NCBI GenBank assembly: GCA_030837965.1 | Contig: JAUTXP010000014.1 | Location: 8,605-72,604 of the forward strand | Origin: Acidimicrobiaceae bacterium | GTDB lineage: Bacteria > Actinomycetota > Acidimicrobiia > Acidimicrobiales > JAUTXP01 | DNA length: 64,000 nucleotides | Direction: 5' to 3' | Part shown: one piece after another, positions 5,258 through 63,248 of the stretch | How the letters are laid out: each line of letters opens with the position of its first letter | How positions within the stretch are numbered: the first letter of the stretch is position 1 | Program-made: the position numbers and the translations under genes | Notes under the pieces: model-generated | What the model was told of the DNA's origin: nothing | What the model saw: the letters and a program-made list of their open reading frames with translations, nothing else | Databases searched by the model: none

Positions 5258-5650
5258 ATGCCCAAGCCGCTCAGCCAGACCACCGGCCGCCGCAAGCAGG
5301 CCGTCGCCCGAGTCCGCTTCCGTCCGGGCACCGGCGCCATCAAGGTCAACGGCAGGCCGCTGGACGACTACTTCCCCTCGGCCACCCACCGGATGGTGGT
5401 CACCGAGCCGCTGCGGCTCACGTCGCAGGCCGAGGACTTCGACGTCGACGCCACCATCCACGGCGGCGGTGTGGCGGGCCAGGCGGGCGCCTTGCGCCTG
5501 GGCATCGCCCGGGCCCTGGCCGTGCTCGACCCCGAGCAGCGCATCACGCTGAAGCGGGCCGGCTTCCTCACCCGTGACGCCAGGGAGAAGGAGTCGAAGA
5601 AGTACGGCCTCAAGAAGGCCCGCAAGGCGCCGCAGTACTCCAAGCGCTAA
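5258..5650 (+). CDS. rpsI: 30S ribosomal protein S9
   Basis: 130-aa [15 protein letters not shown]...[17 protein letters not shown] is the canonical S9 sequence. Confidence 0.97.
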
Positions 5651-5703
5651 GCCAAGCGCTGAGTCCAGCCAGCCCTCCCGCCCCTCTTGCCCGCCCCCCC
5701 TTC

Positions 5704-5738
5704 AACTTTTCCACAGCACCTGCTGCTGTGGAAAAGTT
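5704..5738. repeat. Hairpin repeat family A, copy 1 (AACTTTTCCACAGCA-CCTGC-TGCTGTGGAAAAGTT)
   Basis: 15-bp stem and 5-nt loop, between rpsI and glmM. C-rich 5' flank and G-rich 3' flank. Confidence 0.9.
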
Positions 5739-5754
5739 CGAGAGCGGGGGCGCG

Positions 5755-7086
5755 GTGACGCTGAAGTTCGGCACCGACGGGGTGCGCGGGGTGGCGTACG
5801 TGGAACTGACCACCGACTTGGTGCGCGCCCTGGGCACCGCCGCCGCCCAGGTACTGGGCGGGCCCGCCTTTCTGATCGGCCGGGACACGCGGGCGTCGGG
5901 GCCGGACCTGCAAGCGGCACTGGCTGACGGGCTGGCCGCGGCGGGGGCGGACGTGATCGACCTGGGCGTGCTGCCCACGCCCGCCGTGGCCCACAACTCG
6001 GCCGTCGAGCGCCTGCCCGCGGCCATGATCTCGGCCTCCCACAACCCGTACCAGGACAACGGCGTGAAGTTCTTCCTGGCGGGCGGGCGCAAGCTGTCCG
6101 ACGAGGTCGAGGCCGAGTTGGAGGCGGCCATGGCCCGCACCGCGGCTACGCCCACTCGCTCGGGCGGCCGCCTTTCCACCGCGCCCGGGCCGACTGCGGG
6201 CTACGAGCGCCATGTCCTCGACTCGATCGAGGGCCGCACCCTCCACGGCCTCACCGTCGTCATCGACTGTGCCAACGGCGCCGCCTTCGACGTGGCCCCG
6301 CGAGTCCTGCGCACCCTGGGCGCCGACGTCCACGTCCTGCACGACCAGCCCGACGGCCAGAACATCAACGCGGGCTGCGGGTCCACCCACCCGGGCGATC
6401 TGCAAGCCGCGGTGGTCGAGCGGGGGGCGGACGCGGGTCTGGCCTTCGACGGTGACGCCGACCGGGTGCTGGCCGTGGACCACACCGGCGCGCTGGTGGA
6501 CGGCGACCAGCTCATGGCCGTCCTCGCCCTCGACCTACGCGATCAGGGCCGGCTCCACGACGACACCCTCGTCGTCACCGTCATGAGCAACCTGGGTCTG
6601 CGCCTGGCCATGGCCGACGCGGGCGTGCGGGTGCACGAGACCCAGGTCGGCGACCGGTCGGTGCTCGAGGCGTTGGAGGCAAACGGCTGGTCGCTGGGTG
6701 GCGAGCAGTCCGGCCACGTCATCCTGCGGGACCTGGCCACCACCGGCGACGGACTGCTCACCGGCGTGCAGGTCTTGGACGCGGTGCGCCGCCGGGGCCG
6801 CCCGCTGGCCGATCTGGCCGCGGTCATGGCCCGGCTGCCACAGGTGCTGCGCAATGTGCGGGTCGCCCGGCGCGACGGGCTCGATGACGCCCAGGCTGTT
6901 TGGGACGCGGTGGCCGCGGTCGAGCGGCGGCTGGGACGGTCGGGCCGCGTGCTGCTGCGACCCAGCGGCACCGAGCCGGTCGTGCGGGTGATGGTCGAGG
7001 CGGGCGACGAGGCCACGGCCCAGGCCGCGGCCGACGAGTTGGCCGCGGTGGTGGGCGAGTGGGGGGAGTTCGAAGCCAGGGCCTAG
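5755..7086 (+). CDS. glmM: Phosphoglucosamine mutase
   Basis: From ORF 5728..7086. Motifs FGTDGVRG and the phosphoserine loop ISASHNPYQDNG. Start set to GTG 5755 because the track start at 5728 lies inside the family A hairpin. Confidence 0.92.
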   Translation: MTLKFGTDGVRGVAYVELTTDLVRALGTAAAQVLGGPAFLIGRDTRASGPDLQAALADGLAAAGADVIDLGVLPTPAVAHNSAVERLPAAMISASHNPYQDNGVKFFLAGGRKLSDEVEAELEAAMARTAATPTRSGGRLSTAPGPTAGYERHVLDSIEGRTLHGLTVVIDCANGAAFDVAPRVLRTLGADVHVLHDQPDGQNINAGCGSTHPGDLQAAVVERGADAGLAFDGDADRVLAVDHTGALVDGDQLMAVLALDLRDQGRLHDDTLVVTVMSNLGLRLAMADAGVRVHETQVGDRSVLEALEANGWSLGGEQSGHVILRDLATTGDGLLTGVQVLDAVRRRGRPLADLAAVMARLPQVLRNVRVARRDGLDDAQAVWDAVAAVERRLGRSGRVLLRPSGTEPVVRVMVEAGDEATAQAAADELAAVVGEWGEFEARA

Positions 7087-16336: not shown

Positions 16337-16367
16337 GCGCCCGCCCGAGCGGCGGTACCATGCGGCC

Positions 16368-22156: not shown

Positions 22157-23395
22157 GTGGCAGGGGGAGTGACAGCGGGCGGACGCAAGGCCAGCGGCGG
22201 CGCAGACCAGGCCGTCATGCGCGAGCTGAACCGCTCCCTGGTGCTCGACGTGGTCAAGCACGCCAGCCCCATCTCGCGGGCCGCCATCGCCAAGGAGACC
22301 CACCTGGCCAAGCCCACGGTGAGCGCCATCGTGGACGAGCTGTTGGCGGGCGGCCTGGTGCGCGAGATCGGCGTGGGCGCCACCACCCACGAGGGCGGGC
22401 GCCCGCCCATCCTCCTCGAGTTCAACACCAGGTTTGAGTTCTCCGTAGGCGTCCATGTTGGCGTGCACGTCACCCATGTCGTGGTGGCCGACGCCAGGGG
22501 CGAGGCCCTGATCCAGCGCGAGATGCGCACGCCCGGCGGGTCGGCGGCCGAGGCCCTCGCCCGAGTGGCCGAGATCGTCGGGCAGTCGCTGACCACGGCC
22601 AAGGCGCCCCGGCGCCGGCTGGCCGGCATCGGCGTGTGCGTGCCCGGCCTGGTCGACCCCGAGGCCGGCGTCTGCCTGCTCGCCCCCAACCTGGGCTGGC
22701 GGGACGTGCCCGTGGCCGACCTGCTGGCCGAGGCCATGGGCGGCGGCGTCGCCGTCCACGTGCACAACACGGCCCAGGCCTGCGCGGTGGCCGAGACGCT
22801 CGAAGGCGCGGCCAAGGGATCGAAGGACGCCGTGCTCCTGTATGCGGGCACCGGTGTGGGCGCGGGCATCATCATCGACGAGCGGCTGTACCCAGGCTCG
22901 GCGGGCATTGCGGGCGAGGTGGGCCACTTCCGCGTGCAAGGCGTCGACACCCGCTGCTCGTGCGGCAAGGTCGGCTGCCTGGAGACGGTCGTATCCGTGC
23001 CTGCGGTGGTGGCCGCGGCCAGGGCTGCGGGCGTGGGCGGCGACAAGTTGACGCTGGAGACGGTGGTGGCCGCGGCCGACGCGGGCGACGCTGCGGCCCG
23101 ACAGGTGCTGACCGACGCGGGCCACAGGCTGGGCACGGCCGCGTCGTGGCTGGTGAACCTGTTGAACCCGGACGTCCTCGTCATCGGCGGCGCCCTGGCC
23201 GAGGCGGGGGACCTGGTGCTGGACCCGCTGCGTCAGGCCGTGGCCGAGGACGCCTTGCCCCAGGCCGTGTCCCGCCTGTCGATCCGGCCCTGGATGTTGG
23301 GCCAGGACGCCAAGGTGCGGGGCGCGGTGTTGGTGGCCATGCAGAAGTCGGAGACGTTCGTCCGCCTCATCTTCGGCGCCGACCGCCGCACCTGA
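22157..23395 (+). CDS. ROK-family transcriptional regulator
   Basis: 412 aa with an N-terminal wHTH (ELNRSLVLDVVKHASPISRAAIAKETHLAKPTVSAIVDEL) and the ROK zinc motif CSCGKVGCLE. An alternative start is ATG 22217. Confidence 0.85.
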   Translation: MAGGVTAGGRKASGGADQAVMRELNRSLVLDVVKHASPISRAAIAKETHLAKPTVSAIVDELLAGGLVREIGVGATTHEGGRPPILLEFNTRFEFSVGVHVGVHVTHVVVADARGEALIQREMRTPGGSAAEALARVAEIVGQSLTTAKAPRRRLAGIGVCVPGLVDPEAGVCLLAPNLGWRDVPVADLLAEAMGGGVAVHVHNTAQACAVAETLEGAAKGSKDAVLLYAGTGVGAGIIIDERLYPGSAGIAGEVGHFRVQGVDTRCSCGKVGCLETVVSVPAVVAAARAAGVGGDKLTLETVVAAADAGDAAARQVLTDAGHRLGTAASWLVNLLNPDVLVIGGALAEAGDLVLDPLRQAVAEDALPQAVSRLSIRPWMLGQDAKVRGAVLVAMQKSETFVRLIFGADRRT

Positions 23396-23419
23396 CGACC
23401 TGACACCCCCACCCCCGCG

Positions 23420-23450
23420 CTTTTCCACAGCACCTGTTGCTGTGGAAAAG
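23420..23450. repeat. Hairpin repeat family A, copy 2
   Basis: CTTTTCCACAGCA-CCTGT-TGCTGTGGAAAAG, between the convergent ROK gene and the 23475-25181 gene. Confidence 0.9.
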
Positions 23451-23474
23451 ATGGCGGGGGACGCGGAGAGGGGG

Positions 23475-25181
23475 TTAGCGGCCGCAGGGGGTGGTGAACA
23501 GGCCCGGGTCGCCCTTGCCGTACTGGCCCAGCCTGCGGCGCTTGCCCCCGTCGATGTAGCAGAACCCGCCCTGCTGGCCGTAGTCCTCGCTGGTGAAGCT
23601 CGGGCTCCACCAGATGATGGCCGCGTCCTCCATGAACGAGTGCGTGCCCGGGCTCACCGTCACCTTGCCCGGCATGTTCTTGTGCGGCGGGTTGGGCCAC
23701 TTGGCCCGCATCATCCCGGCCGCGAACGACTCCGGGTTGAGGTGCGGGCCCGCCAACTGCAGCCCGGAGAAGAGCACCAGCATGGCCATGTAGTCCCAGC
23801 GAGCCCCGAAGTACGTGCCCGGCGCATACGGCCACACGAAGCCGGGCTGGATCTCGTTGACGGCCTGCCACCAGAACTCGTCCTCCACCTGGGCCTGCTG
23901 CTTGTTGCGGGTGGAGATGCCGAACGTGTGGGCCGTCTGGGTCTGGGGCTGGGCGCTGATAAACAGGTCCTCGTCGTTGTAGAGGTACCCGGACAGCATG
24001 ATCTCGGGCTGGTAGCCCTGGCTGTCGAGCAGCGAGTAGAGCTGCTTGGTCGTGTTCGAATGGGTCAGCACGATGATCGTGGTGACACCCTTCGACCGCC
24101 AGTCGAACACGGCCGACTGCATCTGCTGCGCGGTGGCGGGCGTGGCCCCCTGCCCGGCCGTGCTGTCCCGCTCCACCTGCACGGTGTGCTCGACGGCGTG
24201 GATGCCGCACGCTTCCAGCGCGGCCTTGGCCGGCCCGTAGTCCGGGGTGGGAGCGTCGGTGTAGCTGTTCTCCAACAGGCCGTAGGAGCGGGGCGTGTTG
24301 ATGAACTCGGGGCCGGCGTGGGCCGCGTTGCCGTCCTTGAGGGCGCAGGCCAACTCGGCCAAGTGGCGGGCCCCCTTGTCGAAGGTGGGCATCATCGTCC
24401 ACTCATACGGATGGTGCTTGGCCAGGTTGTCCTCGTTGGCCGTGTAGGGCCTGCCGTTCACGCTGATCACGCCGCGGTTGGCCAGCTCGTCGTAGTAGTA
24501 GGCCTCGCTGCCCATGATGTCGCAGAAGGACGTGGACGCGAAGACCTGGGCCTTGGCCACCGACCGGGCCGCGTTCTGGGCCACCGAGGGCGACCCGCCG
24601 AAGCACCCGCCAGCCTTGGAGTCGATGGCCTGTCGGCCGTACAGCTCGAAGCGCTTGTTGAAGTAGGCGAGCAGCTTCAAGAACACCGAGTCGTCGGTGT
24701 GGCCGGGGAAGGCCAGCCGGATGGCGTTGGCGTCCACGCCCATTGACGTGACGCCGCCGTTGTCGCCCTCGAAGTACGGCACGCACGGCGGCGACTGGGG
24801 GTCCTCGGTCTGGCGGGGCGGATCGCCCAGGCACGACCGGACCCGCTCGCTGTTGGGGGGCAGCTTGATGGTCGACGTCGTGGTCGGCGGCTTGGGCTGG
24901 CCGGTGGCCGGGTCGATCTCGGCATCGGGTGGACGGGCCGTGCTGTTGCCCGCATCGCCTCCCGCGGCCAGGCCGTTCTCGGCCGACTGCTGCGGGGGCG
25001 CGTCCTTGATGGCCTGCACGGCCTCGGGCGCGTACTCGGCGATGGGCGGGGGCGGCGGCTGGCTGGGGCTCAACGCGGCGATGAGCAGCACGGCCAGCGC
25101 CGCGGCCAGACCGGTGAACACGAAGCCCGGTGCCTTGGCCCCCTTCTTGGGCGGCGGGGTGGTCTCGACGGTCACAGCCAC
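23475..25181 (-). CDS. Membrane-anchored extracytoplasmic protein, possibly a type-I (LivJ-like) solute-binding protein
   Basis: 568 aa with an N-terminal TM anchor (FVFTGLAAALAVLLIAAL) and a Pro/Thr-rich linker followed by a large globular part. The binding-protein assignment is only a guess from context and composition. Confidence 0.6.
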   Translation of the reverse strand: MAVTVETTPPPKKGAKAPGFVFTGLAAALAVLLIAALSPSQPPPPPIAEYAPEAVQAIKDAPPQQSAENGLAAGGDAGNSTARPPDAEIDPATGQPKPPTTTSTIKLPPNSERVRSCLGDPPRQTEDPQSPPCVPYFEGDNGGVTSMGVDANAIRLAFPGHTDDSVFLKLLAYFNKRFELYGRQAIDSKAGGCFGGSPSVAQNAARSVAKAQVFASTSFCDIMGSEAYYYDELANRGVISVNGRPYTANEDNLAKHHPYEWTMMPTFDKGARHLAELACALKDGNAAHAGPEFINTPRSYGLLENSYTDAPTPDYGPAKAALEACGIHAVEHTVQVERDSTAGQGATPATAQQMQSAVFDWRSKGVTTIIVLTHSNTTKQLYSLLDSQGYQPEIMLSGYLYNDEDLFISAQPQTQTAHTFGISTRNKQQAQVEDEFWWQAVNEIQPGFVWPYAPGTYFGARWDYMAMLVLFSGLQLAGPHLNPESFAAGMMRAKWPNPPHKNMPGKVTVSPGTHSFMEDAAIIWWSPSFTSEDYGQQGGFCYIDGGKRRRLGQYGKGDPGLFTTPCGR

Positions 25182-25518: not shown

Positions 25519-26483
25519 CCGCCCGGCACCTGGTTGATGGTGGCCGTGTACTGGCCGGCGACGTCGTCCGCGCCCGCCTTGCCGTGCCACACCACTGACT
25601 CCTGCACGATGAGGCCGCCGTACTGGGTCGCGATCCAGTCCGTGATCTCGGAGTGCACCTGCTGCAACGGGGTGTCCACGTCTTGACTGATGACGACCTG
25701 CCACGCGTCGATGTGCCCGGTGCAGGCCCACACCTTGGACTTGGCCAGGACCTTGCCGTTGACGGTGAAGGTCGTAGCGCTCAACGGGTCGACCGTCGTG
25801 TCCGTCCACGTGGCCCCGACGGTGGCGTCGAGGCTCAACAGCGTCACTGGTTTGGGCGCGTTGAACGAGGGCTGGGCGTCGATGCCCCGGCCCGTGGCCG
25901 ATACGGCCTTGAGCCCCACCGAGCCGGGAACACGGCCGTTGGTGGGCGATGACTGATAGGTGGCCGTCGTCTTGACGCCGAGCACGTCGGACACGAGCTT
26001 GAACGTGACCTGCCCGTCCGGCGTGGCCGAGGAGTTCTGCACGCTGCGGGAGAACGAGCCCACCACCGACTTGCCCTCCACCACACCGTCGATGCGGTAC
26101 GTGTAGTCGCCCGCAGGCGGGGCGCCGCCGAGCGTGCGGGTGGCCTCGAGCTTGGGCGGGGTGACCTGGTCGTCGACGGGGCAGGCGACCACGGGCTGAG
26201 GCACGGGCAGCGGGTCCTCGAACACCGCGGCGGCCCCGTTGCGCTTCCTCACGGGCTCGGCGACGGGGACAACGCCGACGCCACCCAGCACGGGCGCCAG
26301 CACGAAGGGCACGTCCGGGGCGCGGGGATCGTCGGGCGAGGGCTTGCCGAACGACACGTTCACAGGCACCGACTTGCCGCCGAAGGACAGGGACGGCTTG
26401 GGCCCGCCGCAGGCGCTGGTCCCCGCCGCCACCAACGAAAGCGCGGCCAACAGCCGCACGCCGCCGACCCGACCCCGCCTCAC
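25515..26483 (-). CDS. Lipoprotein (322 aa), function unknown
   Basis: GTG 26483 within ORF 25515..27464. Signal sequence VRRGRVGGVRLLAALSLVAAGTSACGG. GTGA overlap with the upstream stop. Beta-rich composition. Confidence 0.7.
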   Translation of the reverse strand: MRRGRVGGVRLLAALSLVAAGTSACGGPKPSLSFGGKSVPVNVSFGKPSPDDPRAPDVPFVLAPVLGGVGVVPVAEPVRKRNGAAAVFEDPLPVPQPVVACPVDDQVTPPKLEATRTLGGAPPAGDYTYRIDGVVEGKSVVGSFSRSVQNSSATPDGQVTFKLVSDVLGVKTTATYQSSPTNGRVPGSVGLKAVSATGRGIDAQPSFNAPKPVTLLSLDATVGATWTDTTVDPLSATTFTVNGKVLAKSKVWACTGHIDAWQVVISQDVDTPLQQVHSEITDWIATQYGGLIVQESVVWHGKAGADDVAGQYTATINQVPGG

Positions 26484-29245
26484 AGCGCGCCCTTCTGGAA
26501 TCGCAGCACCTCGGCCAGCAACTGCTTCGGCGCCGGGTACTCGGGCCGCACTTGCAGGATCTCGAACACGTCGCCCCGCGGCGGGAACCACAGATAGAGC
26601 CGAAGCTCGGACAACTCCTGCACGCCGATCCATTGCCCCTCCATCTTGAACCAGCGGTACTGGCCTGTCTCGATGAACTGGCGGATTCCTCGGCGCACGA
26701 CGATGTCCGTGGTGTCGAACCTGGGCTTGAGCACCGACACCTGGAGCGCGGCCTGCACTTGCGATGTGGACGGCGAGCGCAGGGTCCAGAAAGACCCCTT
26801 GGCCACCATGGACGACGAGCCCGCCTTGCCGAAGGCCTTGGCCGCGCCCGTCTCCTGCGCGGCTCGCAGCGCCAGCACGTCGGCGGGCAGGACGTTGGCG
26901 GGAAGCGGCCCGGCCTGCTTGGCCACTGCCGCGCCCCCGCACGATCCGGTGACCAACGCCAGCACGGTGCCCAGGGCCGGGACCAGGCGGCGCAACAGCC
27001 TGGCCCTGCCCGTGCCGCCTCGCCGCTCTTGGCGCTCGGCTCGACGGTCCGACCTGGCCTTGACCCAGGTGTTGGGCAGGGCCGGGTCGTACGGCCGCCG
27101 CAACGACGCCTTGGCCACCGCGCCCGTCACTTGGGCCACACCCGACTGAGCTCGGGCCAGGCGGCGTCGGAGCGACGCGCTCATGACCTCGGCCGCGTCG
27201 GCGTCGGCGTCGCGCAGGTCGCGGGACAAGTCGCCGTACAGGCCGCGGGTCACCAGCCACGCCAACTCCGCGTGCTCGTCGTCGTCGTCCACCGCCTCCA
27301 GGAACTCCAACGGGGTGGCCGTGGGGTCGCCGATGTTGAGGTCCAACGCCATGTCCCTGAACTCGGCGTAGGCCACGGCCACGCGCGCCCCCGACCCGCG
27401 GGACGTGGCCCAGGCCAGCCGACGACGACGACGCCACAGCTTCAACAGCCACGGCATGGCCCACAGCAGCGCGGCCGCGGCCACCACGAAGGGCAGGGCC
27501 GCGAACACCCAGTAGCGGACCACTTGGAAGAAGAGCAATGGGTTCGGGTTCTGGACCGGGAGATAGATCTGGAGCGACAAGTCCTCACTGGGCCGGACCT
27601 GGTCGTCGATCTTCTTGGACTCGTTGTTGAGCGAGGCCTGGGCCTTCGGGGGCACGCCGACCACCGGCGTCCAGCCCAGGTTGGGGAACCAGACCTCGAG
27701 CCAGTTGGCCCCGTCCTTGGGCCTGAACTCGACGGCCCCGGTGGGCAGCTTGGTGCCGCCCTTGAAGCCGTACCCGATGCGGGCCGGGAGTCCGGCCCAG
27801 CGGGCCAGCAGGGCTTCGGCGGCCACGATCTCGTAGGGCGTGCCTGTCCCGCCTCGAAGCAGTTCGGCCACCTTGGCCCCGTTGATGTCGACGGGGACGC
27901 CCGCGCCCGACGCCACCACGGACGCGTACAGCTTCGAGCGCATGAACTGGAGCCGCTCCCACTGGTTGGTGGGCGCGCCCGCCAGCAGGTCGGACACCAG
28001 CAGCGGCGGCTCGGGCGCCTGGGCGAAACGGGCCACGTCCACCGGCACCGCCCCCACCGCGGCGGCCAACTCGTCACCGGTGGGCGGACGGGCCGCCTCG
28101 ATGGTGTAGCGATAGCCGATGCCGGGCGAGCCCTTGCGCACGCGCAACACCTGGGTCCGCGGGTCGTAGCCCACGTGCCCGCCCGCGCTGCCGATGGACA
28201 CAGGGCTGGCGGGGACGGGCAGGTTGAAGCCGCCGATGTCCTGCACCGTCACCAGTGCCTTGATCGTGGGCCTTCCCAATGGCGCGGGCGGGATGCGGTC
28301 TTGGAAGCGTTTGAGGTCGAGAGGCGGCAGCAGCCATCCGCCCTTGTCGTACTCGTCCAGCACGCCCAGCCGCCACGGGCCCGACGCGTCGACGCCCGAG
28401 TCGGCCTGGACCTCGAACAGGGGCCGGTCCCTCACCTTGTTCAAGGGTTGGATCTGCGGCTTCTGGGGCTTGGCCGACCGGTCCGTCTTGGGCTCCGGGA
28501 ACAGGAGGCTGGCCTGACTCAACGCCCCGACCACGACCAGCGCGGCGCCCACCCCGGCCGCGCCCCGCAGGAGCTGGCGGGCCTCGAACCGCGGCCCGGT
28601 GTCGGCCTCGTCGGCCAACTCGGCGCTGAACGTCATCATCAGCCCGGCCACCAGCAGCACGAGGGCGACGACGCCGGCCAGGACCTCGCCCCCGGTGGGC
28701 TGGCTGAGGGCGGCCGCGATCACGAGGGGCAGGGGGATGAGCAGGGTCAGCTTGGGCCGCTGCAACCCGAGGGCGAGCGATGCGGACGCGGCGCCGATCA
28801 GGGTCAAAAGGGCGACGATGATGAAGCGCCAGCCCGGGTCGAACGGGACCGGCGGCTCGGACAGCCCGCCGTTCTGAATGGCCCTGCGCACCAGTTCGGG
28901 AACGGTGCCGGTCACGCCCGTGTCGTTGGGCAGGATCAGTGCGGCCAGATAGCCGAGGACGAAGGCGCCGGGCACCACGCCGTATTGCAGGACGGGCCGG
29001 TTGCGGCGCACGGCCAGCCACACCCCGCCCACCCCTGCGGCCGCGCCGGCCAGAGCGACCGGCCGGGCCATCCAGCCTTGGAACACGCCGCCCGCCACCC
29101 AGGCCGCGGCCATGGACGCCAACAAGGCGGCCAGCGCCACCCGCCCCGGCCGCGCCACCCCGCCCGCGCCCCCCAAGTCCAACTTTTCCACAGCAGCAGG
29201 TGCTGTGGAAAAGTTCGGGGAGGGCGGTGAGATGGGGGTGGTCAT
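26480..29245 (-). CDS. DUF3488/transglutaminase-like/DUF4129-type membrane protein with extra C-terminal module
   Basis: In ORF 26480..30364. ATG 29245 forms an ATGA overlap with the DUF58 stop; an alternative GTG at 29158 lies downstream of hairpin A3. It has an N-terminal multi-TM region, a TGase-core-like segment (GTPYEIVAAEALLARWAGLPARIGYGF...DGANWLEVWFPNLGW), a late TM helix and then a DUF4129-like tail. Confidence 0.75.
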   Translation of the reverse strand: MTTPISPPSPNFSTAPAAVEKLDLGGAGGVARPGRVALAALLASMAAAWVAGGVFQGWMARPVALAGAAAGVGGVWLAVRRNRPVLQYGVVPGAFVLGYLAALILPNDTGVTGTVPELVRRAIQNGGLSEPPVPFDPGWRFIIVALLTLIGAASASLALGLQRPKLTLLIPLPLVIAAALSQPTGGEVLAGVVALVLLVAGLMMTFSAELADEADTGPRFEARQLLRGAAGVGAALVVVGALSQASLLFPEPKTDRSAKPQKPQIQPLNKVRDRPLFEVQADSGVDASGPWRLGVLDEYDKGGWLLPPLDLKRFQDRIPPAPLGRPTIKALVTVQDIGGFNLPVPASPVSIGSAGGHVGYDPRTQVLRVRKGSPGIGYRYTIEAARPPTGDELAAAVGAVPVDVARFAQAPEPPLLVSDLLAGAPTNQWERLQFMRSKLYASVVASGAGVPVDINGAKVAELLRGGTGTPYEIVAAEALLARWAGLPARIGYGFKGGTKLPTGAVEFRPKDGANWLEVWFPNLGWTPVVGVPPKAQASLNNESKKIDDQVRPSEDLSLQIYLPVQNPNPLLFFQVVRYWVFAALPFVVAAAALLWAMPWLLKLWRRRRRLAWATSRGSGARVAVAYAEFRDMALDLNIGDPTATPLEFLEAVDDDDEHAELAWLVTRGLYGDLSRDLRDADADAAEVMSASLRRRLARAQSGVAQVTGAVAKASLRRPYDPALPNTWVKARSDRRAERQERRGGTGRARLLRRLVPALGTVLALVTGSCGGAAVAKQAGPLPANVLPADVLALRAAQETGAAKAFGKAGSSSMVAKGSFWTLRSPSTSQVQAALQVSVLKPRFDTTDIVVRRGIRQFIETGQYRWFKMEGQWIGVQELSELRLYLWFPPRGDVFEILQVRPEYPAPKQLLAEVLRFQKGAL
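29181..29215. repeat. Hairpin repeat family A, copy 3 (inverted orientation, loop GCAGG)
   Basis: AACTTTTCCACAGCA-GCAGG-TGCTGTGGAAAAGTT lies at the DUF58/TGase-like gene junction on a minus-strand operon. Confidence 0.9.
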
Positions 29246-30450
29246 CGGCGGCCCGCCCCCACTTCGGCCCGGAACACGGCTTCGAGCGACGCCAGCGGCC
29301 GCAGTTGCACGACCTGGCAGCCCAGGGTCGAGGCGAACGCCTGGGTGCGCGGGTCGGAGTCCTCCCACGTGAGGATTACCAGCACCACGTGGGTGCCCCG
29401 GTCGATGAGCAGCTTCAGCCGGGCCGCGGTCTCGCCGTCGAGATGGGGCGTGATGACGACGGTGTGGGCGTTGGCCGCCGCCCCCGCCAGCGTGACCACG
29501 CCCTCGGTCAACCGCTGCTTGCCCCGCTCGACCCGGGCCAGTTCGTCCAGCATCGGGATGCGGCCGGGCTCGTTGCGATAGACCGCGCCCAGCCTGCCGC
29601 CGTTGCCGAACAGCGAGACCGAGAAACCCGTCTTCAAGTGGTGGACGGCCAGCGAGGCGGCCGTCTTGATGGCGGCCTCGAACGTGTCGCTGGGGTCGCC
29701 GGGGGAGTGGGACGACGTGTCCGTGTCGATGAGGATGTGGACCCGGTCGGTGATGCCCTGCTCCGACTCGCGGATGAGCAGCCGGCCGGTGCGGGCCACC
29801 GCCTTCCACACCACCCGCTTCAACTCGTCGCCCCGCACGTAGTCGCGCATGCCGTAGAACTCGAAGCCGCTGGGCCACGGCTTCGACTCCGGCGGCCGGG
29901 TCGGCGGGTCCTCCCACTGCCGGGTGAGCGGACGGTCGTGCACGGCCTCGGTGGCCGGATGCACGATCACCGTGGTGGGCGGCAGCAGTTCGCTGGTCCT
30001 TCGGGTCAGGCCGAACGGGTCGGTCCACACCGCGACCAGCGGCCCGATCTCGTACACCCCCCGCAGCCGGGGCGTGACCGCGTACCGGTGGGGCAGGACG
30101 GTGCCGGGCTGCAAACCGGTCACGGGAACGGTGCGCGTGGTGCCCAAGTGCGGGTGCAACTGCTCCTCCATGAGGAACACGCCCACCCGCCGCTTGGCCG
30201 AGACCGAGACCTCCACCTCCATGCGCTGGCCTTGGCGCAAGCGGGTCGGCACCTCGCTGCGCTCGGCCACCAGGTCGGGCCTGCGCCTGCCCAGGAAGCG
30301 GGCCACTCCCACCACGGCGCCCACGCCGTACACGAGCACGAACAACGTGCGCCCGCCCACCCATCGGGCGAGGAACCAGCAGCCGAACGCGGCGAGGAGC
30401 ACGACGACGCCCGTCGTGGTCAACCCGGTCGCGCTCCGCAGCCGCCGCAT
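29242..30450 (-). CDS. DUF58 domain protein
   Basis: 402 aa with two N-terminal TM helices and the DUF58 hallmark FYGMRDYVRGDELKRVVWKAVARTGRLLIRE. Confidence 0.85.
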   Translation of the reverse strand: MRRLRSATGLTTTGVVVLLAAFGCWFLARWVGGRTLFVLVYGVGAVVGVARFLGRRRPDLVAERSEVPTRLRQGQRMEVEVSVSAKRRVGVFLMEEQLHPHLGTTRTVPVTGLQPGTVLPHRYAVTPRLRGVYEIGPLVAVWTDPFGLTRRTSELLPPTTVIVHPATEAVHDRPLTRQWEDPPTRPPESKPWPSGFEFYGMRDYVRGDELKRVVWKAVARTGRLLIRESEQGITDRVHILIDTDTSSHSPGDPSDTFEAAIKTAASLAVHHLKTGFSVSLFGNGGRLGAVYRNEPGRIPMLDELARVERGKQRLTEGVVTLAGAAANAHTVVITPHLDGETAARLKLLIDRGTHVVLVILTWEDSDPRTQAFASTLGCQVVQLRPLASLEAVFRAEVGAGRR

Positions 30451-45207: not shown

Positions 45208-46749
45208 GTGGGTCGCATGACGTGGTGGGACGGGGCGACCGTCTACCAGTGCTACATCCGTTCCTTCGCCGACGGCAATGGCGACGGCGTGGGCGACCTC
45301 ATCGGGCTGCGCTCGCGGCTTGCCTACTTGAAGTGGCTCGGCGTCGATGCGGTCTGGATCACGCCGTTCTACCGGTCGCCGATGGTCGACCACGGCTACG
45401 ACGTTTCCGACCCGCGTGACGCGGACCCGCTGTTCGGCACGCTGGCCGACTTCGACGGGTTGGTGGACGAGGCCCACCGCTTGGGGCTGCGCGTGCTGAT
45501 CGACGTGATCCCCAACCACACGTCGGACCGGCATCCGTGGTTTCAGGCCGCGCTGGCCGCGCCTGTGGGCGCGCCGGAGCGGGACCGCTACATCTGGCGG
45601 GACCCGGCGCCCGACGGCGGGCCCCCCAACAACTGGCGATCGGTGTTCGGCGGGCCCGCGTGGACGTTGGACGAGCGGTCCGGCCAGTTCTGGCTGCACC
45701 TGTTCGCGCCCGAGCAGCCCGACCTCAACTGGCGCAATCCCGAGGTTGCGGCCGACGCCGAGGCCACCTTGCGCTTCTGGCTCGACCGGGGCGTGGACGG
45801 GTTCCGCATCGACGTGGCCCACGGGCTGTTCAAGGACGCCCGGCTGCGGGACAACCCCGAGTGGACGGGGGAGGGCGTGAAGGAGCTGTGGGGCATGGAG
45901 CAGCGCCACTCCTTCGACCAGCCCGAGGTCCACGACGTGTATCGGCGGTGGCGGCGGCTGGTCGAGTCGTACGGCGAGGACCGGGTGCTGTTGGGCGAGG
46001 TGTTCCTGTGGGACCCGGCCAGGGTGGCCGCCTATGTGCGCGAGGACGAGCTGCACCTGGCGTTCTCCTTCATGCTGCTGGGCCAGCGGTGGGAGGCGGA
46101 CAATCTGCGCCGGGCCATCGAGTGGTCGGCCCAGAACTCGGCGTGGGCCTTGTCCAACCACGACCTGCCCCGCCACGCCACCCGGTTCGGGGGCGTGGTC
46201 GAACGGGCCCGGGCCGCGGCGTTGCTGCTGCTGGGACTGCCGGGCACGGCCGTGCTGTACCAAGGCGAGGAACTGGGGCTGGAGGACGCGGAGGTTCCCG
46301 AGGAGGCCAGACAGGACCCGATCTGGTTTCGCAGCGGCGGGACGGTGACGGGCCGGGACCCGAGTCGGGTGCCGCTGCCGTGGGCCGTGTCTCGGCCGCC
46401 CGCGTTCGGCTTCTGCCCGGACGGCGTGTCGCCCTGGCTGCCCATGCCCGCCGACTGGGGCGAGCGCAGTGTGGAGGCCCAGCAGGATGACGGCGCGTCA
46501 ATCCTGTCGCTGTACCGCCGGGCCTTGGTCTTGCGCCCGACGTTGAGCGGTCCGTTGGAGTGGCTCGACTCGTCGGCCGCGCCCTTCGCCTACCGCCGGG
46601 GCGAGGTGGACGTGCTGGTCAACGTGGGCGACGCACCGGTGCCGTTGCCCGCGGGCGACGTGATCTTGTGGAGCGCGTCGACGCCGCTCGGGCTCAGATC
46701 GACGCGGGTCCTGCCGCCGGACAGCGCCGTCTGGCTCCACCCCCGCTGA
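45208..46749 (+). CDS. Glycoside hydrolase family 13 alpha-glucosidase (oligo-1,6-glucosidase-like)
   Basis: 513 aa with YQCYIRSFADGNGDGVGDL, DVIPNHTS, GVDGFRIDVAHGL, LLGEVF and SNHD. An alternative start is ATG 45217. Confidence 0.88.
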   Translation: MGRMTWWDGATVYQCYIRSFADGNGDGVGDLIGLRSRLAYLKWLGVDAVWITPFYRSPMVDHGYDVSDPRDADPLFGTLADFDGLVDEAHRLGLRVLIDVIPNHTSDRHPWFQAALAAPVGAPERDRYIWRDPAPDGGPPNNWRSVFGGPAWTLDERSGQFWLHLFAPEQPDLNWRNPEVAADAEATLRFWLDRGVDGFRIDVAHGLFKDARLRDNPEWTGEGVKELWGMEQRHSFDQPEVHDVYRRWRRLVESYGEDRVLLGEVFLWDPARVAAYVREDELHLAFSFMLLGQRWEADNLRRAIEWSAQNSAWALSNHDLPRHATRFGGVVERARAAALLLLGLPGTAVLYQGEELGLEDAEVPEEARQDPIWFRSGGTVTGRDPSRVPLPWAVSRPPAFGFCPDGVSPWLPMPADWGERSVEAQQDDGASILSLYRRALVLRPTLSGPLEWLDSSAAPFAYRRGEVDVLVNVGDAPVPLPAGDVILWSASTPLGLRSTRVLPPDSAVWLHPR

Positions 46750-46760
46750 CCCCCCTTCGA

Positions 46761-46791
46761 CTTTTCCACTTCACCTGCTGCTGTGGAAAAG
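46761..46791. repeat. Hairpin repeat family A, copy 4 (degenerate, 2 stem mismatches)
   Basis: CTTTTCCACTTCA-CCTGC-TGCTGTGGAAAAG lies between convergent genes. The stop codon of the minus-strand hydrolase (46771-46773) sits inside the left arm. Confidence 0.85.
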
Positions 46792-47457
46792 ATCGAGGAG
46801 GGCGGTGGCGATGGGGGCGGCGGGGAGTTGGAGGTCGGCCGGGAACGGCACTTCGACCAGTTCCGCATCCGGCAGCCTGGCCGCCAGCGAGCGGGCCACC
46901 TCCATCGGGTGCAGGCCGTCGTCGGGCCAGGCGATGACCAGCGCGGGGACGCGCACGTCGGCCGGGTCGGGGACGGGCATGCCCACGGACAGGTCGCGCC
47001 ACAGGGCGAGCAGATGCTCGGGTGGGAAGCGGGCCGCCCAGAAGTCGGCCATGGGCTCGCCCGCGGCCCGCAAGGCGTCGAACCCGCCCGCCTCGAGCGT
47101 GTCGGCCAGCCAGTCGAGGTAGCCACGCGCGCCCTCGGGGGCACGGGACGAGCCGTCGAAAGCGGGGCCGATCTGCACGAGCGCGGAGCAGCGGGCGTCG
47201 GGCTGTACGGCGTAGGCCAGGGACACGGCCGCACCCATGGACACGCCGCCGACCACGGCGCCGTCGGTCACGTGCGGGCGCACCTCGTCGACCATGGCGG
47301 CCAGCGACAGGCCCATGAGGTCAGGCGTGACCACCTCGACGTCCCGGTCGGCCAGCAGCGGCGCCACCCCGTCGAACTGCGAGTGGTCCTGCCCCATCCC
47401 GTGGAGCAGGACCAATCGGCCCCCCTGCAAGCGCGGCCGGGCAGCGTCGTCCGGCAT
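46771..47457 (-). CDS. Alpha/beta hydrolase
   Basis: ATG 47457 within ORF 46771..47625. It has LVLLHGMGQDH and the nucleophile elbow GVSMGAAV. Confidence 0.7.
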   Translation of the reverse strand: MPDDAARPRLQGGRLVLLHGMGQDHSQFDGVAPLLADRDVEVVTPDLMGLSLAAMVDEVRPHVTDGAVVGGVSMGAAVSLAYAVQPDARCSALVQIGPAFDGSSRAPEGARGYLDWLADTLEAGGFDALRAAGEPMADFWAARFPPEHLLALWRDLSVGMPVPDPADVRVPALVIAWPDDGLHPMEVARSLAARLPDAELVEVPFPADLQLPAAPIATALLDLFHSSR

Positions 47458-54856: not shown

Positions 54857-55546
54857 ATGCACTTCCCGTCGGAGGGCGAGCTGATCCTGCGCATCCTCGT
54901 GGCCGCGCTGTTGGGCGGGGTCATCGGCATGGAGCGCGAGCTCTCAGACCATCCCGCGGGCCTGCGCACCCACATCGCCTTGGCCCTGGGCGCGTCGCTG
55001 TTCGGCGTGCTGTCGGGCTACGGGTTCAGGGAATTCAACGCGTCGAGGACGGTGACCAACTACCAGGTCGACCCCACCCGCGTGGCGTCCACCATGGTCA
55101 CTGGCATCGGCTTTTTGGGCGGCGGCGCCATCCTCAAGGAGGGGGCCAAGGTCAGGGGCCTCACCACCGCGGCCAGCCTGTGGGTCACGGCCGCCATCGG
55201 CCTGGCCTGCGCCTTGGGGGAGTTCGGATTGGCCGTGGCCACCACCGCGGTCGTCGTGCTCAGCCTCACCGTGCTGCGCCGCCCCCAGCGCTGGCCCGTG
55301 TTCCGCAGGCTGGCCATGGCCAACGAGACGGTGGTCATCCGGGTGAAGGCGGGCCGCGACGCCGGGCCTGTGGTCTCCGCCCTCAACGGCATCGAGGGCA
55401 TGAGCGTGCGATCGCTCATCGTGCGCGACCGTGACGGCGAGAAGGTGGTGCAGGCCGACCTGGTGGGGTCCGGCGGGTTCGGCTTGGAGGAGCTGCTGAC
55501 GCCCATCGGCCAGCGCGACGACGTCGACACCCTCGAAATCAGCTAA
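54857..55546 (+). CDS. mgtC: MgtC/SapB family membrane protein
   Basis: ATG 54857 within ORF 53897..55546. It has RILVAALLGGVIGMERE and a C-terminal ACT-like part. Confidence 0.85.
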   Translation: MHFPSEGELILRILVAALLGGVIGMERELSDHPAGLRTHIALALGASLFGVLSGYGFREFNASRTVTNYQVDPTRVASTMVTGIGFLGGGAILKEGAKVRGLTTAASLWVTAAIGLACALGEFGLAVATTAVVVLSLTVLRRPQRWPVFRRLAMANETVVIRVKAGRDAGPVVSALNGIEGMSVRSLIVRDRDGEKVVQADLVGSGGFGLEELLTPIGQRDDVDTLEIS

Positions 55547-55554
55547 CCCCCGAA

Positions 55555-55585
55555 CTTTTCCACAGCACCTGCTGCTGTGGAAAAG
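55555..55585. repeat. Hairpin repeat family A, copy 5
   Basis: CTTTTCCACAGCA-CCTGC-TGCTGTGGAAAAG, between convergent genes. Confidence 0.9.
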
Positions 55586-55616
55586 CGCGGGGGTCTGCCG
55601 CACATGGGGCAATTGG

Positions 55617-56099
55617 CTAGTCGGGGATAGGCGATCTGAGATCGACGAACAGCACCAGACCAGCCTTCTTCTGCCGCTTGATCTCAGTGGGATAGTGGGT
55701 AAGGCCCGGGCCCTCCGGTCCGTACATCGCATGGCTGCATTCGTCTTCGAACACGCCGCGGTCCTGGTGCCAGATGACGTGGCATGTGGGATCGGCCCCG
55801 GGACTTTGGGCCTCGAAGGCCAGCCAACCGGTGGTGGCGTCGTCGCCGACGTGCTGGACGAACAGGTTTCGGCCCCGCCTCTTCAGCGCGTCGGCGAACA
55901 GGAGGGGGCCGTCCCTGTCGATGAGCGGGGCCAATCGGCGGACCTGACCCACCTCGAACGTCGTGTCGCCCAGGTGCACCTTGGCGTCAGGGGAGGACGA
56001 CAGACGCAGGACGAAGGCCACCAGCAGTGCTGCGGTCAAGGCCAGCAGGGCGCTGGCGACGACCGCCGTCTTGAGGGTCGACCGGGGCCGGCGCCCCAT
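55617..56099 (-). CDS. Membrane-anchored hypothetical protein
   Basis: From ORF 55617..56120. ATG 56099 is preferred; GTG 56120 would overlap the upstream stop. It has a single TM helix (VVASALLALTAALLVAFVL). No family recognised. Confidence 0.55.
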   Translation of the reverse strand: MGRRPRSTLKTAVVASALLALTAALLVAFVLRLSSSPDAKVHLGDTTFEVGQVRRLAPLIDRDGPLLFADALKRRGRNLFVQHVGDDATTGWLAFEAQSPGADPTCHVIWHQDRGVFEDECSHAMYGPEGPGLTHYPTEIKRQKKAGLVLFVDLRSPIPD

Positions 56100-63212: not shown

Positions 63213-63217
63213 CCCAC

Positions 63218-63248
63218 CTTTTCCACAGCACCCCCTGATGTGGAAAAG
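63218..63248. repeat. Hairpin repeat family A, copy 6 (degenerate: 10-bp stem, 11-nt loop)
   Basis: CTTTTCCACAGCACCCCCTGATGTGGAAAAG, between the amidase gene and purN. Confidence 0.75.

What the first reader, a model, noticed from the sequence alone, without database searches (positions are those of the whole stretch)
5704..5738. Dispersed hairpin repeat family A: six copies of CTTTTCCACAGCA-CCTGC-TGCTGTGGAAAAG in 64 kb
Copies lie at 5704-5738, 23420-23450, 29181-29215, 46761-46791, 55555-55585 and 63218-63248.
- Structure: a 13-15 bp stem that is markedly AT-richer than the surrounding DNA, with a 5-nt loop (CCTGC or CCTGT).
- Flanks: a C-rich tract on the 5' side and a G-rich tract on the 3' side, which could extend the stem.
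- Position: all copies are intergenic or at gene ends. Three lie between convergent genes, two between co-directional plus-strand genes and one inside a minus-strand operon.
- Orientation: the one copy flanked only by minus-strand genes (29181) carries the reverse-complement loop GCAGG. Loop orientation therefore tracks transcription direction, which points to an RNA-level role.
- Termination: there is no T-tract, so it is not a canonical intrinsic terminator.
- Decay: two copies (46761, 63218) are decaying.
This looks like a REP-like element or a family-specific terminator or RNA-processing signal that I cannot assign to a described class.
Basis: seen in the sequence. Interest (0 to 1): 0.6.

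Follow-up and report, generated by a model that had tools for sequence, protein, structure and literature searches.

The report
Dispersed palindromic repeats with candidate nuclease
The six hairpins belong to a family of about 180 nearly identical 31-base palindromes scattered just after genes in an uncultured soil Acidimicrobiales genome; they behave like the REP repeats of E. coli but lack REP's usual enzyme, and may instead be served by an unusual endonuclease gene that is itself bracketed by two copies.

Summary
All six copies are real. The genome (3.55 Mb, 70% GC) holds 177 copies, and 161 have exact stems.

- **Position:** copies sit a median of 11-16 nt after stop codons. They occupy 15% of convergent, 3.7% of tandem and 1.9% of divergent junctions.
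- **Orientation:** the loop does not track transcription (48 vs 34, p=0.15).
- **Reading frame:** ORFs read through the core in one frame only, FSTA(P/A)(A/G)AVEK (21/89 vs 0/136). This includes true in-frame inserts in MurC, NadB, NuoG and a CheA-type kinase.
- **Sister genus:** it carries at least 53 copies of a variant, TTTCCACAGG-CACTGTC-CCTGTGGAAA. Seven of 17 testable sites are shared, yet each genome shows its own core. Cores are therefore overwritten in place (concerted evolution).
- **Enzymes:** no RAYT, TnpB, IS110 or parent IS was found.
- **New lead:** a single-copy AbiEi-like/Vsr-like (DUF559) endonuclease gene is bracketed by two copies in G000, the sister genus and six metagenome lineages, each with its own variant. 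Where the gene is reduced to a 30-codon stub, the repeats are gone.

Verdict: a REP-like family, and a new variant of a known kind. This scan had already flagged the same family on another piece of this genome.

The parts
5706..5736 (.). Copy 1. Exact core CTTTTCCACAGCA-CCTGC-TGCTGTGGAAAAG. The extended hairpin spans about 5687-5758.
   Evidence: -48.1 kcal/mol with flanks. It lies between +strand genes 5258-5650 and about 5740-7086.
23420..23450 (.). Copy 2. Exact stems with the CCTGT loop, the minor and probably older subfamily. The extended hairpin spans about 23406-23474.
   Evidence: -43.9 kcal/mol. Convergent site between gene 22169-23395 (+) and gene 23475-25175 (-).
29183..29213 (.). 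Copy 3. Exact stems, with the loop reading GCAGG on the + strand. The extended hairpin spans about 29164-29227.
   Evidence: -43.6 kcal/mol. It lies between -strand genes 26480-29191 and 29242-30423, inside the eight-gene operon.
46761..46791 (.). Copy 4. Two mismatches in the left arm (CACTTCA for CACAGCA). The extended hairpin spans about 46740-46816.
   Evidence: -43.2 kcal/mol. Convergent site between gene 45217-46749 (+) and gene 46771-47457 (-).
55555..55585 (.). Copy 5. Exact core with the CCTGC loop. The extended hairpin spans about 55546-55594.
   Evidence: -45.2 kcal/mol. Convergent site between gene 54857-55546 (+) and gene 55617-56099 (-).
63218..63248 (.). Copy 6. CCCCC-loop subfamily, with one mismatch in the right arm (TGATG). 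The extended hairpin spans about 63199-63269.
   Evidence: -34.4 kcal/mol. It lies between +strand genes 62181-63212 and 63256-63804.
16337..16367 (.). Empty site. This intergenic spacer has no copy here, but the orthologous spacer of a related metagenome species (L008:2645-2675) holds an exact copy.
   Evidence: The empty spacer itself has no significant structure (z 0.39).

Best explanation
This is a lineage-specific, non-autonomous palindromic DNA repeat of the REP kind.

**DNA level.** The 31-nt core, plus a few bases of inner flank, is copied to new places. More often it overwrites older copies, in a gene-conversion or homing-like way. As a result every copy in one genome carries that genome's current master sequence, while the outer C-run and G-run flanks are an older and more diverged layer. 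Copies survive where they do little harm. Most lie directly after stop codons, especially between convergent genes, and some lie after tRNA genes. Inside ORFs they survive only in the one frame that gives a small Ala/Gly/Pro/Ser/Thr-rich peptide, (F)STA(P/A)(A/G)AVEK.

**RNA level.** Once transcribed, each copy forms a very stable bidirectional hairpin about 10-15 nt after the stop codon. That hairpin would be expected to act as a 3'-end barrier or as an RNase III substrate. It would not act as a canonical intrinsic terminator.

**Shown here:** copy number, placement, frame restriction, true in-frame inserts, the sister family, and shared sites carrying genome-specific cores.

**Inferred:** the copying and overwriting mechanism, its enzyme, and any effect on RNA.
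For: Census and subfamilies:
- 177 copies, 161 with exact stems. Loop subfamilies are CCTGC 134, CCTGT 31 and CCCCC 11. Shared variants indicate copying from variant masters.

Placement:
- 63 convergent, 82 tandem and 8 divergent copies against 422, 2192 and 430 junctions (chi-square p=5e-22).
- 131 of 177 copies have a stop codon within 30 nt of the core.

Frame restriction:
- Read-through occurs for 21 of 89 genes in frame 2 and for 0 of 136 in the other two frames (Fisher p=7e-10).

In-frame inserts:
- A 13-aa insert in MurC is absent from 6 relatives.
- Inserts also lie in NuoG, in NadB and in a CheA-REC linker.

Mobility:
- A related species (72-88% nucleotide identity) has the identical core at sites that are empty in G000. 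Only 1 of 12 of its sites is shared.

Sister family:
- G002 has 53 exact matches of TTTCCACAGG-CACTGTC-CCTGTGGAAA with conserved flanks CCCTTCACCTCGCG / CGCGAGGTGAAGGGG.

Concerted evolution:
- 7 of 17 G002 sites with both flanks collinear are also occupied in G000, each by the host genome's own core (P=0.008 even at the 15% convergent occupancy).
- The same holds in NadB and on both sides of the DUF559 gene.

Flanks:
- Left and right flanks assort independently, and real pairs fold no better than swapped pairs. This fits recombination or overwriting within the core.

Distribution:
- The core was not found in 400 other genomes of the order.
- The looser superfamily pattern is above background only in G000 (176) and G002 (59) among 41 genomes.
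Against: - No transposase that could move it was identified. Y1/RAYT, TnpB, IS110 and Y2 are absent. The Y2 search rang in no control genome, so it is uninformative. The single DDE_Tnp_1 gene and the rve fragment do not co-vary with the repeat.
- There are no target-site duplications, and no solo arms bounding a larger IS.
- No within-species presence/absence polymorphism was available, so the exact boundaries of the inserted unit are not fixed. The MurC case suggests about 39-42 nt.
- Extreme core identity could also reflect selection for a host function.
- Gene calls come from my own simple caller.
- All genomes are MAGs, in which repeats and IS elements are often missing.
- Shared sites could in part be parallel insertions into hot spots.
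Confidence: 0.75

Rival explanations
1. Host-selected signal at RNA 3' ends. The hairpin would be a family-specific bidirectional terminator, a transcript stabiliser or an RNase III processing site. Its sequence identity would then be kept by selection, and spreading would be secondary.
For: - Copies lie a median of 11-16 nt after stop codons, and 15% of convergent junctions are occupied.
- Hairpins of -34 to -52 kcal/mol form on both strands.
- Some copies lie right after tRNA genes.
- The M. tuberculosis TRIT element and the Neisseria Correia repeats are comparable 3'-UTR hairpin repeats that now appear to be RNase III substrates (PMC13714241).
Against: - There is no U-tract. Mycobacterial RNA polymerase needs one at intrinsic terminators (PMC3993855, title and abstract).
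- Structure alone does not need an invariant 31-nt sequence.
- 96% of tandem junctions and 85% of convergent junctions do without a copy.
- Sites turn over between species.
- Copies occur inside essential genes.
- Loop orientation is random with respect to transcription.
Confidence: 0.12
2. Sites that titrate or bind DnaA or another protein. Each arm (TTTTCCACA) fits the relaxed DnaA-box consensus TTWTNCACA, so the family would form about 350 dispersed DnaA boxes, or sites for another DNA-binding protein that organises the chromosome.
For: - 349 of the 355 TTTTCCACA nonamers in the genome lie in the elements.
- The 155-kb contig that carries dnaA has 0 copies against 7.7 expected (P=5e-4).
- The outer arms TTTCCACAG are the part conserved between genera.
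Against: - The boxes next to dnaA/dnaN are of the TTGTCCACA/TTGTCCACC type.
- Sister variants break the box: G002 has GTTTCCACA, and other lineages have AATCCACAG or ACCTTCA.
- The resemblance was noticed after the fact.
- The depletion on one contig is a single observation in a binned assembly.
Confidence: 0.04
3. Ordinary REP or MITE whose enzyme is simply missing from the assemblies. A RAYT or a DDE insertion sequence with matching ends would exist but would not have been assembled or binned.
For: - All genomes are MAGs: 88 contigs at 98% completeness for G000, and 87-91% completeness for the two relatives.
- Five contigs end at or within about 35 nt of a copy, so repeats do break this assembly.
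Against: - PF01797 gave nothing at E up to 1 in three genomes, while it rang in 10 of 14 control genomes.
- RAYTs are single-copy and normally assemble.
- There is no GTAG/CGTC tag, there are no REP doublets and no target-site duplications.
- No solo arm lies anywhere in 3.55 Mb.
Confidence: 0.07

Closest known systems
REP / REPIN elements with RAYT (TnpA_REP) transposases of Proteobacteria
   Same: - Short palindromes in tens to hundreds of copies, outside genes and mostly at 3' ends.
- A species-specific consensus and mostly vertical inheritance, with long persistence (bioRxiv 10.1101/2021.07.10.451892 and PMC3116915, abstracts).
- A single-copy associated gene bracketed by copies. Here that gene is only a candidate.
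   Different: - No Y1/RAYT gene.
- No GTAG/CGTC tag beside the hairpin.
- Singlets only, with no REPIN doublets or BIME mosaics.
- A perfect 13-bp stem with a 5-nt loop.
- The host is an actinobacterium (Acidimicrobiales).
- The candidate partner is a PD-(D/E)XK nuclease.
Rickettsia palindromic elements (RPEs)
   Same: Palindromic repeats that insert in frame into unrelated housekeeping genes and are translated as a conserved peptide (PMC10969869).
   Different: - RPEs are about 100-150 bp long and restricted to Rickettsia.
- Here the translated unit is about 13 aa.
- Only 12% of copies touch ORFs.
- Use of one reading frame is absolute.
TRIT element of Mycobacterium tuberculosis and Correia repeats of Neisseria
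   Same: - Conserved hairpin repeats in 3' UTRs, frequent between convergent genes.
- TRIT was first taken for a terminator and is now proposed to be an RNase III substrate (PMC13714241).
- TRIT is also actinobacterial.
   Different: - No sequence relationship was tested, because the TRIT sequence was not at hand.
- No RNA data exist for this organism.
Vsr-like (EDxHD/DUF559) homing endonuclease I-Bth0305I and the AbiEi antitoxin
   Same: - The gene bracketed by copies models with mean pLDDT 88.7.
- Its N-terminal ~195 residues resemble AbiEi (6y8q, E 3e-7).
- Its C-terminal ~100 residues resemble the catalytic domain of I-Bth0305I (3r3p, prob 1.0, TM 0.60).
- From my own knowledge: AbiEi binds inverted repeats in its own promoter, and I-Bth0305I drives gene conversion of a mobile intron.
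   Different: - This gene is not in an intron and has no AbiEii toxin partner.
- It is single-copy, syntenic and vertically inherited.
- No activity has been tested.

Membership tests
REP/REPIN-RAYT system | High-copy short palindrome confined mainly to extragenic space at gene 3' ends | tested here: met
   177 copies. 153 lie in intergenic junctions, with convergent junctions occupied about 4 times as often as tandem ones and about 8 times as often as divergent ones.
REP/REPIN-RAYT system | Cognate Y1 HUH transposase (RAYT, PF01797) in the genome, usually flanked by REPs | tested here: not met
   There was no match at E up to 1 in G000, G001 or G002, while the controls rang.
REP/REPIN-RAYT system | Conserved GTAG or CGTC tetranucleotide next to the hairpin | tested here: not met
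   The column profile of 174 oriented copies shows a variable 2-8-nt spacer followed by a C-run, with no GTAG/CGTC.
REP/REPIN-RAYT system | Copies arranged as inverted doublets (REPIN) or BIME mosaics | tested here: not met
   The closest pair in G000 is 667 nt apart. One 163-nt pair occurs in the metagenome relative.
MITE derived from a DDE insertion sequence | Target-site duplications, plus a parent IS carrying the same terminal inverted repeats | tested here: not met
   The flanks are inverted, not direct, and they are unrelated between the two sides. No solo arms bound a larger element. The one DDE_Tnp_1 gene is not associated with the repeat.
Rickettsia palindromic elements (as a way of behaving) | In-frame insertion into conserved protein genes with translation of the repeat | tested here: met
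   MurC, NadB, NuoG and a CheA-type kinase carry the insert, while relatives lack it or carry their own variant. Membership in the RPE families themselves is excluded by size and host.
Canonical intrinsic terminator | GC-rich hairpin followed directly by a U-tract | tested here: not met
   The 3' flank is a G-run, the T-run lies on the 5' arm, and the A-run lies on the 3' arm.
DnaA-box cluster (datA-like) | Nonamers that match the organism's own DnaA boxes and are conserved as such | tested here: inconclusive
   TTTTCCACA fits TTWTNCACA, but the boxes beside dnaA are TTGTCCAC(A/C) and the sister variants break the box.
TRIT (M. tuberculosis) | Match to the TRIT consensus sequence and structure | not tested
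   No TRIT sequence or model was available. Rfam gave no match in the window at gathering thresholds.

The most novel reading that the evidence does not exclude
The repeats may form a RAYT-independent REP system whose cognate enzyme is a single-copy, vertically inherited AbiEi-like wHTH protein fused to a Vsr/DUF559 (PD-(D/E)XK) endonuclease. In G000 this gene is C24:107987-108931.

**Bracketing.** The gene is flanked on both sides by the palindrome in G000, in the sister genus G002 and in six metagenome lineages. A seventh lineage is flanked on one side only, and an eighth has only an unrelated 3' palindrome. Each lineage uses its own sequence variant.

**Read-through.** By my reading of the C-terminal tails, about 11-12 of 14 orthologue C-termini read through the 3' copy.

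**Divergence.** The protein diverges much faster than its neighbours (about 50% against about 80% identity) but keeps its catalytic-type residues.

**Loss.** In genus G001 the gene is reduced to a 30-codon stub with a relic of the repeat's flank beside it, and the repeat family is absent from the whole genome.

**Proposed mechanism.** The nuclease would bind the inverted arms and cut. Repair from another copy would then spread and homogenise the core, as in homing.

**Evidence:**

**Caveats.** The bracketing sites are orthologous and so are not independent. Only one loss event was seen. About 7 other G000 genes are bracketed by chance. Four paralogues in G000 are not bracketed.
Probability: 0.4. 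Interest if true: 0.8.

Novelty: new variant of a known kind. Interest (0 to 1): 0.6.

Why it matters
REP-type repeats are understood almost only in Proteobacteria, where a RAYT tyrosine transposase serves them. This family brings several new points:

- It lies in a different phylum and has no RAYT.
- It shows unusually clear evidence that copies at the same chromosomal site are rewritten to each genome's current master sequence.
- It is tolerated inside essential proteins in exactly one reading frame.
- It points to a testable candidate enzyme of a quite different fold.

If the nuclease link holds, it would be a second, independent route to REP-like "domesticated replicators". It would also give a first function to one branch of the very large and uncharacterised family of actinobacterial AbiEi-N/DUF559 proteins.

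In practice, the repeats break MAG assemblies at contig ends. They also add spurious C-terminal tails and inserts to annotated proteins.

Tried and rejected
1. **Exact-pattern scan of genome contigs.** It returned nothing usable.
2. **Loop orientation against transcription.** Not significant.
3. **Covariation between left and right flanks.** Position by position there is none. By folding energy there is also none: real pairs give -40.6 kcal/mol and swapped pairs -41.3.
4. **The idea that the C-run/G-run is a pre-existing terminator hairpin used as a target.**
   - Empty C-run-to-G-run motifs are not enriched at convergent sites.
   - The window's empty site has no significant structure.
   - G002's well-conserved flanks show that the flanks belong to the element.
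5. **Known mobilising enzymes.** Y1, TnpB, IS110, Y2, rve and DDE_Tnp_1 were sought. None co-varies with the repeat.
6. **A parent IS with the same arms.** None was found.
7. **The ++ versus -- asymmetry (21 vs 61).** It traces to strand-biased contigs and is not a biological effect.
8. **Palindromes beside other DUF559 homologues.** The one in G021 is single-copy, hence an ordinary hairpin. The one in G001 belongs to a different family of 9 copies.
9. **Literature search for the sequence.** Only chance hits were found.

Full report
**1. Observation**

- Four copies have exact stems.
- Copy 46761 has two changes in the left arm.
- Copy 63218 has one change in the right arm and the loop CCCCC.
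- The window is 70-72% GC, so the AT-rich arms stand out.
- C-rich 5' and G-rich 3' flanks are present in all six copies.
- Rfam has no match anywhere in the window at gathering thresholds.

**2. Whole-genome census**

The window is C25:8605-72604 of a 3.55-Mb, 88-contig assembly.
- The genome holds 177 copies at up to 4 mismatches. Of these, 161 have exact stems, 12 have one mismatch, 3 have two and 1 has four.
- Two further copies are cut by contig ends and about four are decayed. No solo arm bounds a larger element.
- Counting both orientations, the loops are CCTGC 134, CCTGT 31, CCCCC 11 and CATGC 1. These act as subfamilies, which fits copying from variant masters.
- Outside the 31-nt core, identity falls at once to 45-79% per column. 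The typical layout is [stop codon] C4-6 run, a 2-8-nt variable spacer, the core, a variable spacer, then a G-run [stop codon of the converging gene].
- The core alone folds at -19 kcal/mol as RNA and -13.5 as DNA. Real copies with their flanks fold at -34 to -48, and an idealised 57-mer at -52.

**3. Organism**

DnaA relatives are all uncultured soil Acidimicrobiales (Actinomycetota) MAGs, the best at 87% identity.

**4. Placement relative to genes**

I called genes with a simple codon-bias model, giving 3132 genes and 88.7% coding.

| Context | Copies | Junctions of that type | Occupancy |
|---|---|---|---|
| Convergent | 63 | 422 | 15% |
| Tandem | 82 | 2192 | 3.7% |
| Divergent | 8 | 430 | 1.9% |
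| Overlapping an ORF | 21 | – | – |
| At a contig end | 3 | – | – |

- The departure from the background junction counts gives chi-square p=5e-22.
- The core starts a median of 11-16 nt after the stop codon of the gene that runs into it. In tandem sites it lies 52-67 nt before the next start codon.
- 131 copies have a stop codon within 30 nt on at least one side.
- Two copies follow tRNA genes directly.
- In tandem sites the loop is co-oriented with transcription in 48 cases and opposed in 34 (p=0.15).
- An apparent excess of -/- over +/+ sites comes from strand-biased contigs.

**5. One reading frame only**

The core has no stop codon in any of its six frames. Yet all 21 copies that an ORF reads through are read as (F)STA(P/A)(A/G)AVEK.
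- Among 225 genes that run towards a core, 21 of 89 in that frame read through.
- None of the 136 genes in the other two frames does so. Those frames would give LFHSTCCCGK or FPQHLLLWK (Fisher p=7e-10).
- At least seven copies lie deep inside real genes with high third-position GC on both sides: NadB, MurC, NuoG, a CheA-type kinase with a receiver domain, a glycosyltransferase-like protein, a YihY-like membrane protein and a giant surface protein.
- Alignment with relatives shows a clean 13-residue (39-nt) insert in MurC that six relatives lack. G000 reads GCC TCC CTC [CTC GAC-core-ATG GAG] GGG GTG.
- Further inserts lie in a variable NuoG linker and in the CheA-REC linker.
- Only selection on the translated peptide can produce a frame rule like this. 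The behaviour matches what is described for Rickettsia palindromic elements (PMC10969869).

**6. Relatives: turnover and a sister family**

*Distribution of the exact core.*
- It was not found in 40 close relatives or in 400 genomes (215 genera) of the order.

*A related species in one metagenome.*
- One soil metagenome (Ga0190267) holds 10 contigs from a related species (72-88% nucleotide identity to G000) with the identical core and all three loop types.
- Only 1 of its 12 copies is at a site shared with G000. At least six sites are empty in G000, including window 16337-16367.
- At the shared site the loop is flipped. The relative's copy also carries a compensatory A>C / T>G pair of changes.

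*The sister family in G002.*
- The NadB alignment showed that G002, a different genus of the same family, has an in-frame palindrome at the same NadB site. Its sequence differs...TTTCCACAGG-CACTGTC-CCTGTGGAAA..., read as ISTGTVPVET.
- That variant has 53 exact copies in G002. Its flanks are well conserved (CCCTTCACCTCGCG / CGCGAGGTGAAGGGG), and again it lies directly after stop codons.
- G002 flank "alleles" (CTCGCG or CTGTGA on the left, CGCGAG or TCACAG on the right) occur in mixed combinations.
- In G000, left and right flanks are statistically independent, and real pairs fold no better than swapped pairs.

**7. Concerted evolution**

- I examined 40 G002 copies. For 17 of them both flanks are collinear in G000, and in 7 of those 17 G000 has a copy at the orthologous site.
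- Chance would give about 1-2.5. P is 0.008 even if the 15% convergent occupancy is assumed.
- At every shared site each genome shows its own core. This also holds in NadB and on both sides of the nuclease gene described in section 8.
- In the alignments the coding flanks and the outer C/G-runs are visibly homologous, while the core and inner spacers are replaced.
- The CCTGT subfamily matches the G002 centre at 10 of 15 positions, against 9 of 15 for CCTGC. It also occupies 4 of 10 shared sites, against 17.5% of all sites. It is probably the older form in G000.
- I therefore infer that cores are overwritten in place, by gene conversion or homing, or by excision and re-insertion into old copies. 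This would also explain why the core is invariant while the flanks are ragged.
- Concerted evolution by gene conversion was proposed long ago for E. coli and Salmonella REPs. That statement rests on my own knowledge (Higgins et al. 1988; Gilson et al. 1987) and was not checked here.

**8. What moves or maintains it**

*Known enzymes.*
- Searches for Y1/RAYT, the TnpB TNB domain, IS110 and Y2 found nothing in G000, G001 or G002. The Y2 search rang in no control genome and is therefore uninformative.
- G000 has one DDE_Tnp_1 gene and one rve fragment, G001 has one of each, and G002 has none. These do not follow the repeat.

*A bracketed gene.*
- Looking for genes bracketed by two copies, I found about seven such genes in G000.
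- One of them, C24:107987-108931, has an orthologue in G002 (50% identity) that is also bracketed, by G002-type copies, in a fully syntenic locus: SAF/RcpC-like gene, this gene, then convergent BacA. The neighbours are 75-89% identical.
- Pfam gives AbiEi_4 with borderline DUF559 and MTES_1575 hits.
- An AlphaFold model (mean pLDDT 88.7) matches AbiEi over the first ~195 residues (6y8q, E 3e-7). Its last ~100 residues match the Vsr-like catalytic domain of homing endonuclease I-Bth0305I (3r3p, prob 1.0).
- DUF559 is classed with Vsr in the PD-(D/E)XK superfamily (PMC3424549).

*Orthologues in other lineages.*
- Eight further orthologues (44-62% identity) were examined in context, all from different metagenome contigs and all in the same synteny.
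- Six are bracketed on both sides by a lineage-specific variant of the palindrome:

| Locus | Variant |
|---|---|
| L191, L196 | GCCTTTTCCACAACCCC-WGG-GGGGTTGTGGAAAAGGC |
| L192 | ATTTCCACAGCG-ACAGG-TGCTGTGGAAAT |
| L193 | AATCCACAGCA-CCCCC-TGCTGTGGATT |
| L199 | AATCCACAGCA-CCTGC-TGCTGTGGATT |
| L198 | ACCTTCA-ACTGC-TGAAGGT |

- L190 has a copy on one side only. L197 has only an unrelated palindrome downstream.
- Extra copies elsewhere in the same 20-kb pieces show that these variants are dispersed there too.
- By my reading of alignment A2, about 11-12 of 14 orthologue C-termini run through the 3' copy.
- D231, E242, FDRD255-258 and K261 are invariant.

*Distribution across genomes.*
- Among 41 related genomes the loose pattern TCCACA-N7-15-TGTGGA is above background only in G000 (176) and G002 (59). 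Among 26 genomes, only those two have the orthologue.
- In G001, the third genus of the family, the same locus keeps only a 30-codon stub, MRPEHWRALTTLAANQDGLVTA.... It is followed by CGAGGTGAAG, which is the right-flank motif of the G002-type element. The G001 genome has no palindromes of this superfamily.
- G012 has the BacA locus without the gene, and no palindromes.
- The four paralogues in G000 are not next to any copy (coordinates).

*Assessment.*
- The layout mirrors a RAYT bracketed by its REPs, and the decay of REPINs after RAYT loss. It rests, however, on orthologous and therefore non-independent sites and on a single loss event.
- I rate a real functional link at about 0.4.

**9. 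How it most likely works**

- **Shown:** a high-copy palindrome confined to gene ends; turnover of sites between species; genome-specific cores at shared sites; survival inside ORFs in one frame only.
- **Inferred, DNA level:** a copying and overwriting process that acts on the core, possibly started by the AbiEi-like/Vsr-like nuclease binding the inverted arms.
- **Inferred, RNA level:** a very stable bidirectional hairpin 10-15 nt after the stop codon. It lacks a U-tract, so it is not a canonical terminator. It could block 3' exonucleases or be cut by RNase III, as now proposed for TRIT and the Correia repeats (PMC13714241).
- No RNA data could be consulted.

**10. DnaA-box likeness**

- TTTTCCACA fits the relaxed consensus TTWTNCACA, and 349 of the 355 such nonamers in the genome lie in the repeats.
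- The boxes beside dnaA are of the TTGTCCAC(A/C) type, and the sister variants break the box.
- The dnaA contig C68 has no copy against 7.7 expected. That remains unexplained and could reflect binning.

**11. Verdict**

This is a real REP-like repeat family. It is not a member of the RAYT-REP family, because the defining features were tested and not met. It also shows RPE-like in-frame tolerance.

The scan had already classed the same family as REP-like on another piece of this genome (e1-2170343). New here are:
- the genome-wide statistics;
- the single-frame rule;
- the sister family;
- in-place core replacement at orthologous sites;
- the bracketed nuclease candidate.

Noticed in passing
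G000 contig C24:107987-108931 (outside the window), with copies at C24:108017 and C24:108943: An AbiEi-like wHTH + Vsr/DUF559 endonuclease gene is bracketed by two copies. Its orthologues in G002 and in six metagenome lineages are bracketed by their own variants (a seventh on one side only). In G001 the gene is a 30-codon stub.
   Followed up: yes
G000 contig C68 (154.9 kb, carries dnaA at about 87037-88491): There are no copies where 7.7 are expected (Poisson P=5e-4). The tetranucleotide profile is normal (r=0.997). Contigs C59 and C13 also have none and are composition outliers, so they may be islands or mis-binned.
   Followed up: partly
G001:C71:2411-2447 and 8 other places in G001: G001 lacks this family but has its own palindrome family, GTAACGCTGGCGCC-N9-GGCGCCAGCGTTAC, with 9 exact copies and variable loops. 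One copy lies just after a DUF559 paralogue that is a 1.1-kb insertion relative to G000 C63:8133-8206.
   Followed up: partly
G000 contig ends: C14:18, C17:33, C29:27, C65:34, C43:4962: Five contigs begin or end within about 35 nt of a copy. The repeat evidently breaks the short-read assembly, which hints at longer shared flanks at some sites.
   Followed up: no
L009:2726 (metagenome relative) against G000 C17:33: At the one site these two species share, the loop is inverted. The relative's copy also has a compensatory double change (TTTTCCCCAGCA...TGCTGGGGAAAA). In G002 a few copies have a fully symmetric centre, GGCAC-A-GTGCC.
   Followed up: partly
window 26480-29191 and many other gene ends: Start and stop calls next to copies are unreliable. 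The GTG inside the right arm (GTGGAAAAG) is picked as a start codon by naive callers (10 cases at offset -9), and C-terminal tails such as ...FSTAPAAVEKMEG* are repeat-derived.
   Followed up: partly
L010:4059-6808 against G000 C28:36871-36926: The metagenome relative has a 2.7-kb insertion relative to G000 whose right end is a copy of the palindrome. Its content was not examined.
   Followed up: no
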